From Escherichia coli (lineage in GTDB: Bacteria > Pseudomonadota > Gammaproteobacteria > Enterobacterales > Enterobacteriaceae), in NCBI RefSeq assembly GCF_003019035.1, contig NZ_CP027447.1: a stretch of DNA of 64,000 bases, one strand, 5' to 3'. Positions 15,881 through 19,671 of this stretch are shown one piece after another (the stretch's first letter is position 1; the number at the start of each line of letters is the position of its first letter). The notes under the pieces were generated by a model, which saw only the letters and a list, made by a program, of their open reading frames with translations, searched no databases and was not told the DNA's origin. A program made the translations under genes and the position numbers.

Positions 15881-16465
15881 TTACTGGTAAGTAATGGTAT
15901 ATGCAGTGTTGGTTTTAACATAACCAGCAGTTGGTGCCTGGCTTGCTTCAGCACGGACATAGGATGCTTTAAAATCATAGGTTGCAGATTTAGTCGTAGC
16001 GTCCAGCGTTTTTGTGTAAATATCGCCTGGGTTGTTAATTTGAACCTGTTTGATAGTGGAACCATCAATATTGTGCAGGGCAATATTTACGCCGTCAGAA
16101 GGCGTGTTAATAGACATATCGTTGTTCAGAGTCCCTTTGCTGTTGCCAAAGAACACGGAACCGAAGGTCATTTTTGCGGTGCTACCAGGATTCGGGTTTG
16201 CATTGCTGCAGTCAACGGTGATGCTGAAAGGTTTAGCTTTAGCACCTACGGTGTCATTCAGTACGCCAGCACTGATTTCAGCAACAGTTGCAGTTTGCAG
16301 AAGCACCAGGCCATCTTTGTTGCCACCATCAACACGGGTTTCACAGGTGTTATCAACTACCAGACCACTGATATTTAATTGGCCACCGTCCAGTGCAGCA
16401 GAAGCATTACCAGCAACCATTGCTAACATCAAGCTGGACAGCGCAAAACCTAATTTTTTAGACAT
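15881..16465 (-). CDS. yadN: fimbrial major subunit
   Basis: ORF 15881..16489; start taken at [23 protein letters not shown] (16465) preceded by SD aagga; C-terminal motif ...AYTITYQ. Confidence 0.9.
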
Positions 16466-16772
16466 AATAATCCTTGAATAATATTCCATGAGTTTAACTT
16501 TAATCAGCCCCCCTCAAGCAGGAAGTCCCGAGAAAGAAAAGGTGAATGGTTTGTTAATGATGGATGTTTGGATTTACCGAATGTAACATCTGTTCATCAT
16601 TAGGGGAGTATTGTGCACATTTAATATTAAATATCCACTTAATTCAATTTTAAGTAAAACTAAATATATAATGTGACGATAATGGTGTATATGGGCGGGG
16701 CTGCCAAGTGGGGTAAAATATTATATGTTTATGATTATATTCTGGGGCGAATTAATTGCAATTGTGGGAAGG

Positions 16773-17291
16773 CTATTTTCGGAATTTATTTATATTTGCA
16801 ACACTATTGTATTGCCATTTATTTAATTCATCGAATTTATTTATTCGTAAAAAGTTGTCTAATACTGTCCCATCAGGAAACACTAACTTCGGCGCAATTT
16901 CAAACAGTGGCCACAGCATAAAGCCACGATTTTTCATATCGTAGTGCGGAACGGTCAGACGTTCGGTATTTATTACTTCATTACCAAACAGCATGATGTC
17001 GAGATCCAGCGTGCGCGGTCCCCAGCGTTCAGCTTTACGGACGCGACCTTGCTGCAATTCGATACGTTGTGTGTGATTGAGTAGCTCTTCAGGGGCAAGA
17101 GTGGTTTCCAGCGCGACGGCGGCATTTAAGTAATCGGGTTGATCTTGCGGCCCCAGCGGTGGGGTGCGGTAAAACGAAGAAACAGCAAGAATGCGGCTTT
17201 CTGGAATATCGCCTAATGCTTTCAGGGCAGCATTGACCTGCTCCAGCGGAGAGGCCAGATTGCTGCCTATGGCAATATACGCCACTGTCAT
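16773..17291 (-). CDS. folK: 2-amino-4-hydroxy-6-hydroxymethyldihydropteridine pyrophosphokinase (HPPK)
   Basis: 172-aa [35 protein letters not shown]...; start ATG overlaps pcnB stop (ATGA). The last ~35 residues differ from the K-12 protein as I remember it (see findings). Confidence 0.9.
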
Positions 17292-18685
17292 GCGGTACCC
17301 TCACGACGCGGTGCGCGTTTGCGTGGACGACGAGTACGACGACGCGGTGACGGTTCTTCATCCAGTTCGTTAAGCATCCCTTTTTGGTCTGGCGGCGCGG
17401 AAACCTGGAACTCACCCCACCATTTCACCAGACGTTGCAGTTCAGCGTTACGCTCAACTTCGGCTCGTAAGGCCAACAGGTCGTATGCCGCACGGAACTT
17501 AGGATGCTCCAGCAGTTTCCATGCGCGTTTTCCCTGACGACGGGACATACGCAACTGCAACTGCCAGATATCGCGAGTTAGCGTAGTCAGACGTTTCGGG
17601 ATCGCCAGTGAACGGCAGGCTTCGTCCAGCACGTCGTTCATCGCCAGTGCGAAAGCGTCGTGATAGGTCAGGCCGCTCTCCTGAGCAATTTTCTGTGCCG
17701 TCTCCAGCAGTGGATACCAGAACATGGCGGCAAACAGGAACGCCGGGTTCACGCGCATATCGTTATGGATACGCGTATCGGTATTCTTCAGCACCTGTTC
17801 AATGATCCGCTCCATCGGGCTGTCGCCATTTTCCGTGAAGTAGCGGGTAATGGTCGGGAACAGCGGCTGGAACAGATGATATTCACACAGCAGCTTATAA
17901 GTTTCGTAACCGTAGCCCGCTTGCAACAGTTTCAGCGATTCTTCAAACAGACGTGCCGGTGGGATATCGTTCAGTAAGGTTGCCAGGCGTGGGATCGGCT
18001 CGGCGGTTTCCGGGCTGATGCGCATGCCCAATTTGGCGGCAAAACGAACCGCGCGAAGCATCCGTACCGGATCTTCACGGTAGCGCGTTTCCGGGTTACC
18101 AATCAGACGGATAACGCCGTCTTTCAGATCCTTCATGCCGCCAACGTAATCACGGACGGTAAAATCTGCCACGCTGTAATACAGGCTGTTGATAGTGAAA
18201 TCGCGGCGCTGGGCGTCTTCTTCGATGGAGCCGAAAATGTTGTCGCGCAGCAACATACCGTTTTGCCCGCGTTGGGAGGTCGTGCGGTCGCTGACGTTAC
18301 CTTCGTGATGTCCACGGAAGGTCGCAACTTCGATAATCTCCGGGCCAAACATCACATGAGCCAGACGGAAACGGCGACCCACCAGGCGGCAGTTACGGAA
18401 CAGTTTGCGCACCTGCTCTGGCGTGGCGTTGGTGGTCACGTCAAAATCTTTCGGCTTTTTGCCAAGTAACAGGTCGCGCACGCCGCCGCCAACCAGCCAG
18501 GCTTCGTATCCCGCTTTATTGAGCCTGTACATTACCTTCAGGGCATTTTCACTGATATCTTTGCGGGAAATAGCATGCTGCTCACGCGGGATCACCGTCA
18601 CCTGTGGACGGGCGACTGCCTGTTCAGCCTCGCTTTCCTCGCGGCTTAGCACCTTGCGGCAAAAATTAGCGACTCGGGTAAAAAT
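17288..18685 (-). CDS. pcnB: poly(A) polymerase I
   Basis: ORF track 17288..18706. Mature N-terminus (I)[21 protein letters not shown] begins at an AUU codon (18685..18683) preceded by SD gaggtg; nucleotidyltransferase motif [10 protein letters not shown]...DFD. Confidence 0.92.
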
Positions 18686-18744
18686 AGTACACCTCGGTAG
18701 TGTCAAACATCATTCAGGACAAAAAAATAGCGGCTAATCATAGC

Positions 18745-19671
18745 TCAGCATGACGCATTTGAGAATGTTGAATTTACAATTGCCGACTCAGGCACGGCAG
18801 TCAGCGTCCAGTTTTTGACGGCTGACTGAAGGATTTGCTCGACGCTGAAATCCTGCCAGTGTGTTTCTACCTGCTGACCCAGAAAATGAAGTGCCGCGAT
18901 TAACACCGGGCGCGGATCGCCTTTCGGCAACGCAGGCGCATGATTCTGCTTGGAAAGTTTAGCGCCTTGTGTGTTAAGCGCCAGCGGTAAATGAATGTAA
19001 TCTGGCACTTTCCAGCCAAAAAGCTGGTACAGCGAGATTTGTCGCACTGTCGGTTCAATCAAATCTGCCCCACGAACAATTTCTGTGACGTCCTGGAAGT
19101 GATCATCGACCACCACCGCCAGGTTATAGGCAAACAAACCATCACGACGATGAATAATAAAATCTTCTTGCGCCAGTTTTTCGTCGGCGTGAATAATTCC
19201 GCGTAGTTGATCAGTAAACTGCGTGACCGGATGCAACTGCCGAATTCGCACAGCCGCGTTGTCTGGTCCATGATGCAAATCCCGGCAATGACCGTCGTAA
19301 ATACCGCCAATGCTTTGAATACGCGCACGCGTGCAGGTGCAGTAATAACTTAGTCCTTGCTCATATAACCAGGCGAGTGCTTCGCGATAGGCGTGGTGAC
19401 GTTGCGATTGCCAGAGAACGTCGCCGTCCCAGTGCAGGCCGTAATGTTCCAGCTGGCGCAGGATAGTCTCTGCGGCACCGGGAACTTCACGAGGCGGGTC
19501 GATATCTTCTATGCGTACCAGCCAGCGACCTTGCCGGGCGCGAGCCTGTAAATAGCTGCCAAGCGCGGCAATCAGAGAGCCAAAATGAAGCTCGCCGGAA
19601 GGAGAGGGGGCGAAGCGACCAATATAGTGTGTGTCTGTCATCTCTTTGAACAAAAAATAAGGCGGGAGCAT
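18745..19671 (-). CDS. gluQ: glutamyl-Q tRNA(Asp) synthetase
   Basis: 308-aa ORF; class-I synthetase motifs ELHFGS and KLSK. The first 10 codons overlap the dksA terminator, so initiation at 19641 ([10 protein letters not shown]) is plausible. Confidence 0.9.

What the first reader, a model, noticed from the sequence alone, without database searches (positions are those of the whole stretch)
18683..18706. pcnB uses a non-AUG (AUU) initiation codon
The conserved poly(A) polymerase N-terminus ([12 protein letters not shown]...) is preceded in frame by att (18685..18683) with a good SD (gaggtg) upstream. The only in-frame ATG is 7 codons further upstream (18706) and has no SD. This agrees with the published finding that E. 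coli pcnB initiates at AUU, which limits PAP I levels. Worth noting because automated callers will place the start at 18706.
Basis: partly seen in the sequence, partly recalled or inferred. Interest (0 to 1): 0.3.

Follow-up and report, generated by a model that had tools for sequence, protein, structure and literature searches.

The report
pcnB starts at a known AUU codon
The E. coli poly(A) polymerase gene pcnB begins at a rare, weak ATT start codon that keeps this toxic enzyme scarce; this was published in 2002 and is already annotated this way in RefSeq, so the finding is correct but ordinary.

Summary
The window is E. coli. pcnB lies on the minus strand at 18685..17288 and encodes 465 aa.

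**What holds up**
- The in-frame ATT at 18685..18683 is real, and so is the GAGGTG Shine-Dalgarno at 18695..18690.
- The ATT and GAGGTG are each invariant in 80 of 80 pcnB loci from about 30 Enterobacteriaceae genera.
- In 43 of those 80 loci there is no in-frame ATG, GTG or TTG between the nearest upstream stop and the ATT.
- Constraint typical of coding sequence starts immediately after the ATT.
- The 25-nt core from the SD to codon 5 is exact in 5,420 of 5,424 E. coli genomes. No genome carries ATG there in an otherwise identical context.
- RefSeq starts pcnB at the ATT in all 5 records I checked.
- Several held papers cite Binns & Masters 2002 for the AUU start.

- The codon at 18706 is TTG, not ATG. 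The ATGs at 18713 and 18710 are out of frame, and TGA at 18712..18710 closes the frame.
- The prediction about automated callers is only half right. Versions of 472, 465 and 454 aa all circulate in public databases, but current PGAP uses the ATT.

**Verdict:** already known, low interest. One small extra: synonymous sites in codons 2-13 are the most conserved of the gene.

The parts
17288..18685 (-). pcnB coding sequence (poly(A) polymerase I), 465 codons plus stop, starting at ATT
   Evidence: ORF. Identical CDS boundaries appear in RefSeq records NZ_CP033850.1 and NZ_CP051751.1 (protein WP_010723084.1). NCBIfam NF008634 scores 996 bits against a cut-off of 702 and aligns to residues 1-464. 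Pfam PF01743, PF12627 and PF12626 all match.
18683..18685 (-). ATT (AUU) initiation codon of pcnB
   Evidence: It is the annotated start in K-12 b0143 and in 4 other RefSeq genomes. It is invariant in 80/80 Enterobacteriaceae loci. No ATG variant was found in 5,426 E. coli genomes.
18690..18695 (-). Shine-Dalgarno GAGGTG, a 6-nt perfect complement of the 16S rRNA 3' tail
   Evidence: Duplex energy is -9.8 kcal/mol. It is invariant in 80/80 loci.
18686..18689 (-). 4-nt spacer (TACT) between the SD and the ATT; constant length, variable sequence
   Evidence: All four columns vary among the 80 loci. In-frame codon -1 reads T, I, P, A or N, so it is not constrained as coding sequence.
18647..18682 (-). 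Codons 2-13 ([12 protein letters not shown]): translated, and with unusually conserved synonymous sites
   Evidence: In codons 2-11, all 5 variable columns fall at third positions (P=0.0018). Third-position entropy is 0.234 against a gene mean of 0.904, rank 1 of 246 windows; none of 20,000 permutations reached the observed mean.
18704..18706 (-).
   Evidence: Its SD energy is -2.3 kcal/mol. A TTG at this position occurs in only 26 of 80 loci.
18710..18712 (-). In-frame TGA that closes the pcnB frame 9 codons upstream of the ATT
18708..18713 (-). Two out-of-frame ATGs (ATGATG) that open a non-conserved 15-codon ORF ([15 protein letters not shown]) across the SD and ATT
   Evidence: An ATG at these positions occurs in only 11 of 80 loci.
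18650..18652 (-). In-frame GTG at codon 12; start of the 454-aa form found in older and automated annotations
   Evidence: Its SD energy is -0.1 kcal/mol. The ten codons upstream of it are under protein-coding constraint.
18530..18532 (-). In-frame ATG at codon 52; I infer this is the start originally proposed by Liu & Parkinson 1989, called +1(b) in PMC2939334
   Evidence: Sequence. PMC2939334 describes such an AUG downstream of the sigma-S promoter pS1. The mapping to codon 52 is my inference, because it is the first in-frame ATG of the CDS; the paper's figure is not held.
18737..18765 (-). Sigma-70 promoter-like site TTCTCA-17-TATGAT overlapping the gluQ stop codon (TGA 18747..18745); possibly the published major promoter pB, not verified
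   Evidence: 1 site found against 0.5 expected by chance. The block GCTATGATTAGCCGC is conserved in 70 of 80 loci.

Best explanation
pcnB, the gene for poly(A) polymerase I, is translated from the AUU codon at 18685..18683. A strong and perfectly conserved Shine-Dalgarno, GAGGUG, sits 4 nt upstream. It places the 30S subunit so that AUU occupies the P site, in a leader with little secondary structure. Initiator tRNA mispairs with AUU at the third position, and initiation factor IF3 discriminates against such complexes. Initiation is therefore inefficient: AUU gave about 1-2% of AUG in reporter measurements. That keeps PAP I, which is toxic in excess, at a few tens of molecules per cell.

Shown here: the anatomy, its conservation, the absence of a usable canonical start in most species, and the maintenance of the weak codon itself. 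Taken from the literature: the experimental identification of the AUU start, the limiting effect, and the toxicity. Inferred: that IF3 discrimination is the operative mechanism at pcnB, by analogy with infC.
For: Sequence:
- ATT is in frame and GAGGTG lies 4 nt upstream.
- SD duplex energy is -9.8 kcal/mol for the ATT, against -2.3 for TTG 18706 and -0.1 for GTG 18652.
- The initiation region 18732..18640 is less structured than shuffled sequence (z +1.46).

Comparison of 80 loci from about 30 genera:
- ATT is 80/80 and GAGGTG is 80/80.
- The spacer and the upstream leader vary and carry indels.
- 43 of 80 loci have no in-frame ATG, GTG or TTG between the nearest upstream stop and the ATT.
- 5 loci have an in-frame stop 5-7 codons upstream of the ATT.
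- In codons 2-11 all 5 variable columns are third positions (P=0.0018).
- In-frame codons -1 and -4 to -7 change amino acid or become stops.

E. coli population:
- The 25-nt core is exact in 5,420 of 5,424 genomes.
- No genome has ATT changed to ATG in an otherwise identical context, although I infer that change would leave the protein unaltered.

Annotation:
- K-12 b0143 and four PGAP genomes start at the ATT.
- The NF008634 equivalog model aligns from residue 1.

Literature:
- AUU start and translational limitation: PMC2939334, PMC3561954, PMC4447247.
- Only infC and pcnB are confirmed AUU starts in E. coli, and AUU gives 1-2% of AUG: bioRxiv 10.1101/063800.
- About 30-50 PAP I molecules per cell, and toxicity on overproduction: PMC3561954.
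Against: - In E. coli itself an in-frame TTG lies 7 codons upstream with no intervening stop. Sequence alone therefore cannot exclude some initiation there in this strain.
- PMC3561954 paraphrases Binns & Masters as reporting 'a poor ribosome binding site'. By base-pairing energy the SD looks strong. I could not read the primary paper to resolve this. The short 4-nt gap after GAGGUG may be what they meant.
- I found no start-site ribosome-profiling or N-terminal proteomic data for pcnB in the held literature.
- IF3 dependence of pcnB expression was not verified here.
Confidence: 0.95

Rival explanations
1. Translation starts at the in-frame TTG at 18706, giving a 472-aa protein with seven extra residues (MTLPRCT). 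The ATT is then just an internal isoleucine codon.
For: TTG is the first canonical start of the open frame. The 472-aa form is deposited on at least 1000 contigs, including a RefSeq 'MULTISPECIES' entry.
Against: It has no SD (-2.3 kcal/mol). A TTG at this position occurs in only 26 of 80 loci, and 43 of 80 loci have no canonical in-frame start upstream of the ATT at all. The intervening codons change amino acid or become stops, apart from the two that coincide with the SD. Current RefSeq annotation and the literature both place the start at the ATT.
Confidence: 0.02
2. Translation starts at the in-frame GTG at codon 12 (18652), giving the 454-aa form found in older annotations. Conservation of the ATT..GTG stretch would then be at the nucleotide level, as a leader or promoter, and not as protein.
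For: GTG at codon 12 is conserved in 80/80 loci. The 454-aa form is widespread in databases. Synonymous sites in codons 2-13 are unusually conserved, so some nucleotide-level constraint does exist.
Against: It has no SD (-0.1 kcal/mol). In codons 2-11, all 5 variable columns are third-position and synonymous, and none of the 20 first or second positions varies (P=0.0018). That is the signature of translated sequence. GTG encodes a conserved internal valine. The curated equivalog model includes the N-terminal residues.
Confidence: 0.02
3. In addition to the AUU-initiated protein, a shorter PAP I isoform is made under particular conditions. It would come from a downstream in-frame AUG on transcripts from the sigma-S promoter pS1, which lies inside the 5' coding region. 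I take that AUG to be codon 52 (18532). This supplements the AUU start and does not replace it.
For: PMC2939334 reports pS1 activity in vitro, and in vivo in stationary-phase ppGpp0 cells. It also notes two anti-PAP I bands on Western blots and raises this possibility. An ATG is present at 18532..18530, preceded by GAAGG.
Against: The authors themselves call it unproven and say pS1 needs unusual conditions. A protein starting at residue 52 would lack residues 28-51, which are part of the crystallised protein (PDB 3AQK-3AQN, residues 28-442). ATG at codon 52 appears in only some species' lists of in-frame downstream starts.
Confidence: 0.1

Closest known systems
E. coli pcnB AUU start (Binns & Masters 2002, Mol Microbiol 44:1287, PMID 12068810)
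   Same: It is the same gene and the same codon. The window's start region is identical to K-12 from the end of gluQ through codon 30, and K-12 b0143 is annotated from this ATT.
   Different: Nothing of substance. This strain's pcnB protein is WP_010723084.1. I did not make a residue-by-residue comparison with K-12.
infC (IF3) AUU start with IF3 autoregulation
   Same: Both use a non-canonical AUU initiation codon that limits expression. These are the only two confirmed AUU starts in E. coli.
   Different: infC is a closed feedback loop, because its product IF3 discriminates against its own start codon. PAP I is not an initiation factor, so any IF3 effect on pcnB runs one way. IF3 dependence of pcnB was not verified here.
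Other expression-limiting rare start codons, such as Enterococcus faecalis ebpA ATT (PMC4447247) and Streptomyces sigR GTC (PMC5472188)
   Same: A rare start codon is used to attenuate synthesis of a protein whose level matters. For sigR the abstract states explicitly that IF3 represses translation.
   Different: The genes and organisms are unrelated. Only the principle is shared.

Membership tests
PcnB / poly(A) polymerase I (NCBIfam NF008634 equivalog) | Whole-protein score above the curated cut-off of the equivalog model | tested here: met
   996.3 bits against a cut-off of 702. Protein residues 1-464 align to model positions 1-468 of 469.
PcnB / poly(A) polymerase I (NCBIfam NF008634 equivalog) | Domain set: nucleotidyltransferase head domain, RNA-binding region and arginine-rich C-terminus | tested here: met
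   PF01743 at residues 62-193, PF12627 at 220-280 and PF12626 at 338-457. Residues 28-442 align without a mismatch to the E. coli PAP I crystal chain 3AQM_A.
PcnB / poly(A) polymerase I (NCBIfam NF008634 equivalog) | Gene order dksA-gluQ-pcnB-folK as in E. coli K-12 | tested here: met
AUU-initiated genes of E. coli (pcnB and infC type) | ATT sits exactly where protein-coding constraint begins, preceded by an SD at working distance | tested here: met
AUU-initiated genes of E. coli (pcnB and infC type) | No canonical start codon can account for the conserved N-terminus | tested here: met
   43 of 80 related loci have no in-frame ATG, GTG or TTG between the upstream stop and the ATT. In this window a TTG exists, but it lacks an SD and is not conserved.
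AUU-initiated genes of E. coli (pcnB and infC type) | The weak codon is itself maintained and is not replaced by ATG, GTG or TTG | tested here: met
   ATT is 80/80 across genera. No E. coli genome has ATG there, and the core is exact in 5,420 of 5,424.
AUU-initiated genes of E. coli (pcnB and infC type) | Experimental mapping of the initiation site, and higher expression when AUU is changed to AUG | not testable with these tools
   Reported by Binns & Masters 2002 according to PMC2939334, PMC3561954 and PMC4447247. The primary paper is not held.
AUU-initiated genes of E. coli (pcnB and infC type) | Expression responds to IF3 level or IF3 fidelity mutants | not testable with these tools
   Established for infC according to PMC9410913 and PMC5499595. 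For pcnB it is inferred only.

The most novel reading that the evidence does not exclude
The start region may be more than a weak start. The SD, its spacing, the AUU and the first 12 codons are frozen across Enterobacteriaceae, synonymous sites included. Third-position entropy there is 0.23 against 0.90 for the gene, rank 1 of 246 windows. This block could be a dedicated sensor that ties PAP I synthesis to the cell's IF3-to-ribosome ratio. That would explain why PAP I falls as growth rate rises. Alternatively the block could be a binding site for an undescribed sRNA or protein regulator. The published AUU story does not cover either idea.
Probability: 0.12. Interest if true: 0.35.

Novelty: already known. 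Interest (0 to 1): 0.08.

Why it matters
PAP I adds poly(A) tails that mark bacterial RNAs for decay and that set ColE1-type plasmid copy number. Too much of it polyadenylates tRNAs and kills the cell (PMC3561954). The AUU start is one of the devices that keep it at a few tens of molecules per cell.

For genome annotation, pcnB is a standing trap. Public collections hold three N-terminal versions of the same protein (472, 465 and 454 aa), because ab initio gene callers generally do not consider ATT as a start (my own knowledge). None of this is new.

Tried and rejected
- **Upstream ORF.** They open a 15-codon ORF ([15 protein letters not shown]) that runs across the SD and the ATT. An ATG at these positions occurs in only 11 of 80 loci, so I rejected it as a conserved regulatory uORF.
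- **TTGACA as a promoter.** TTGACA at 18706..18701 is a perfect -35 hexamer, but I could find no acceptable -10 at 16-18 nt by eye, and the scan did not report a site there.
- **Terminator after gluQ.** No terminator-like site was found. The only hairpin before the U-run is weak (-6.4 kcal/mol, z -0.26).
- **Known RNA element in the leader.** No Rfam match between 18300 and 19100 at E<=1.
- **RNA structure hiding the SD or start.** The region folds less well than shuffled sequence, so I rejected this.
- **Primary papers.** Binns & Masters 2002 (by PMID) and the id I recalled for Cao & Sarkar 1992 (PMC50342) returned nothing.
- **Start-site profiling data for pcnB.** Nothing in the TetRP paper or its supplements, and nothing in any retapamulin study held.
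- **Crystal structures.** They begin at residue 28, so they say nothing about the N-terminus.
- **Beyond Enterobacteriaceae.** I did not extend the comparison. The single genome-collection scan returned only the 80 closest loci, and a further protein search would not have changed the verdict.

Full report
**What is in the sequence**

The window is E. coli. Positions 18400-18900 are 100% identical to strain FDAARGOS_497, and 5,424 of 5,426 complete E. coli genomes hold the region.

On the minus strand, the open frame containing pcnB runs from an in-frame TGA at 18712..18710 to the stop at 17290..17288. Within it:
- The first canonical start codon is TTG at 18706..18704.
- Seven codons further on lies ATT at 18685..18683, followed by [12 protein letters not shown].
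- GAGGTG lies at 18695..18690, 4 nt before the ATT.

Its statement that 18706 is an in-frame ATG is wrong. That codon is TTG. The two ATGs close by, at 18713 and 18710, are in another frame, and the frame holds no ATG between the closing stop and the ATT.

**Which start does the sequence favour?**

I paired the 20 nt upstream of each candidate with the 16S rRNA 3' tail.

| Candidate start | SD duplex energy (kcal/mol) |
|---|---|
| ATT 18685 | -9.8 |
| TTG 18706 | -2.3 |
| GTG 18652 (codon 12) | -0.1 |

Only 2 of the 47 long ATG ORFs in the window have an SD as strong as or stronger than the one before the ATT. Only 2.5% of random 20-mers do. The 93-nt initiation region folds less well than its shuffles (z +1.46), so the site is open.

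**Comparative test**

One scan of the species-representative genome collection returned 80 pcnB loci from about 30 genera of Enterobacteriaceae, at 86-100% protein identity. All results below are anchored on the codon aligned with the ATT.
- ATT is present in 80 of 80 loci, and GAGGTG in 80 of 80.
- The 4-nt spacer keeps its length, but all four of its columns vary.
- Upstream of the SD the sequences diverge and carry indels.
- In 43 of 80 loci there is no in-frame ATG, GTG or TTG between the nearest upstream stop and the ATT.
- In five loci an in-frame stop lies only 5-7 codons upstream of the ATT.
- A TTG at the E. coli position occurs in 26 loci. Two Salmonella loci (L022, L023) have ATG there.
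- In-frame codons -1 and -4 to -7 change amino acid freely or become stops. Codons -2 and -3 are invariant only because they coincide with the SD.

Downstream of the ATT the pattern switches at once to that of translated sequence. In codons 2-11, all 5 variable columns are third positions and none of the 20 first or second positions varies (P=0.0018). The peptide [10 protein letters not shown] is therefore translated. That rules out the GTG at codon 12 as the start. In most species only the ATT can begin the protein.

**Is the weak codon itself selected?**

- The 73-nt start region is identical in 5,413 of 5,424 E. coli genomes.
- I then used a 31-nt megablast probe in which any mismatch in the central 25 nt (SD through codon 5) abolishes the hit. 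It matched 5,420 genomes.
- The same kind of probe carrying ATG in place of ATT matched none.

I infer that a change from ATT to ATG would not alter the protein. Its absence from 5,426 genomes and from 80 species therefore argues that inefficiency is what selection maintains.

**Annotation**

- K-12 b0143 spans 157729..159126 and encodes 465 aa. Its first codon is ATT, and the upstream sequence is identical to the window.
- PGAP places the start at the same ATT in FDAARGOS_497, F11, O103 RM8385 and SCU-301.
- The curated NCBIfam equivalog NF008634 aligns from residue 1 (996 bits against a cut-off of 702). I presume this is what guides PGAP to the ATT.
- Even so, an exact look-up shows that the 472-aa (TTG), 465-aa (ATT) and 454-aa (GTG) versions are each deposited on at least 1000 contigs.

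Mis-calls are common in public data, but they go both upstream and downstream, and NCBI's current pipeline is correct.

**Literature**

The primary paper, Binns & Masters 2002 (PMID 12068810), is not in the held library. Held papers report its content consistently.
- pcnB translation starts at a non-canonical AUU upstream of the start and promoter originally proposed by Liu & Parkinson (PMC2939334).
- According to PMC3561954:
  - the AUU, together with 'a poor ribosome binding site', limits PAP I synthesis;
  - PAP I is present at about 30-50 molecules per cell;
  - excess PAP I polyadenylates tRNAs and is lethal;
  - homologues in many Proteobacteria also appear to use AUU.
- infC and pcnB are the only two confirmed AUU starts in E. 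coli, and AUU initiates at about 1-2% of AUG in reporters (bioRxiv 10.1101/063800; PMC5499595; PMC4447247).

The phrase 'poor ribosome binding site' sits oddly with the strong pairing I computed. I could not resolve this without the primary paper. The short 4-nt gap after GAGGUG may be the reason.

**Mechanism**

- *Shown here:* a conserved strong SD positions the ribosome on a conserved AUU in an unstructured leader.
- *From the literature:* AUU is a poor initiator, and this limits the level of a toxic enzyme.
- *Inferred, by analogy with infC:* IF3 discrimination against the third-position mismatch is the operative step. PAP I output would then fall as IF3 rises.

**Family membership**

The protein is an unambiguous PcnB. 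It passes the NF008634 equivalog cut-off and carries Pfam head, RNA-binding and arginine-rich C-terminal domains. Residues 28-442 align without a mismatch to the crystallised E. coli PAP I chain 3AQM_A. The crystal constructs lack residues 1-27, so they give no information on the N-terminus.

**A small addition**

In 78 loci that align without gaps, third-position entropy at codons with an invariant amino acid averages 0.904 bits over the gene. For codons 2-13 it averages only 0.234. That is the lowest of 246 sliding windows, and none of 20,000 permutations reached it.

Some nucleotide-level constraint therefore lies on top of the coding constraint. The likeliest reason, which I infer, is the need to keep an open, U-rich initiation region around a kinetically weak start. 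Promoter elements reported inside the 5' coding region (pS1, PMC2939334) or an unknown regulator are alternatives. No Rfam family matches the region.

**Verdict**

The phenomenon is already known and is already correctly annotated in RefSeq. Interest is low.

Noticed in passing
window 16773..17291 (minus strand): folK here is a 172-aa allele. Its last ~30 residues differ from my recollection of the K-12 FolK sequence (159 aa), and it runs 13 codons longer. Homology among E. coli genomes breaks about 430 nt into folK, and only 1,074 of 5,424 genomes cover at least 80% of 16400-17300. The gene's 3' end therefore seems to sit on the edge of the hypervariable yad fimbrial region. Strain SCU-301 is 100% identical here, and PGAP aa there.
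   Followed up: partly
window 19641 and 19671 (minus strand), gluQ start: The neighbouring gene has its own start-site disagreement. K-12 b0144 is annotated at 308 aa, from the ATG at 19671. PGAP aa, from the ATG at 19641 ([10 protein letters not shown]...).
   Followed up: no
window 18716..18750 (minus strand): The block GCTATGATTAGCCGC plus a T-run, directly after the gluQ stop, is conserved in 70 of 80 Enterobacteriaceae loci. Its distance to the ATT varies from 42 to 78 nt. It contains the -10-like TATGAT of the only promoter-like site in the region. It can also form a weak hairpin before the U-run (-6.4 kcal/mol, not better than shuffles). It may be the published pB promoter, which I could not verify.
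   Followed up: partly
window 17288..17291: The pcnB stop and the folK start overlap by 4 nt (ATGA), the classic arrangement for translational coupling. The weak pcnB start might therefore also influence folK translation.
   Followed up: no
L022 and L023 (Salmonella enterica subsp. diarizonae and arizonae), 21 nt upstream of locus position 1201: These two loci have an in-frame ATG exactly where E. coli has TTG, 7 codons upstream of the conserved ATT.
   Followed up: no
window 18647..18682 (minus strand): Codons 2-13 of pcnB have the most conserved synonymous sites in the gene. Entropy is 0.23 against 0.90, rank 1 of 246 windows. This points to nucleotide-level constraint on the initiation region beyond the protein code.
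   Followed up: partly
E. coli genome collection: Three records labelled as plasmids carry the pcnB start region, and 2 of 5,426 genomes lack it. Four genomes that carry pcnB have some change within the SD-to-codon-5 core; I did not identify these variants.
   Followed up: no
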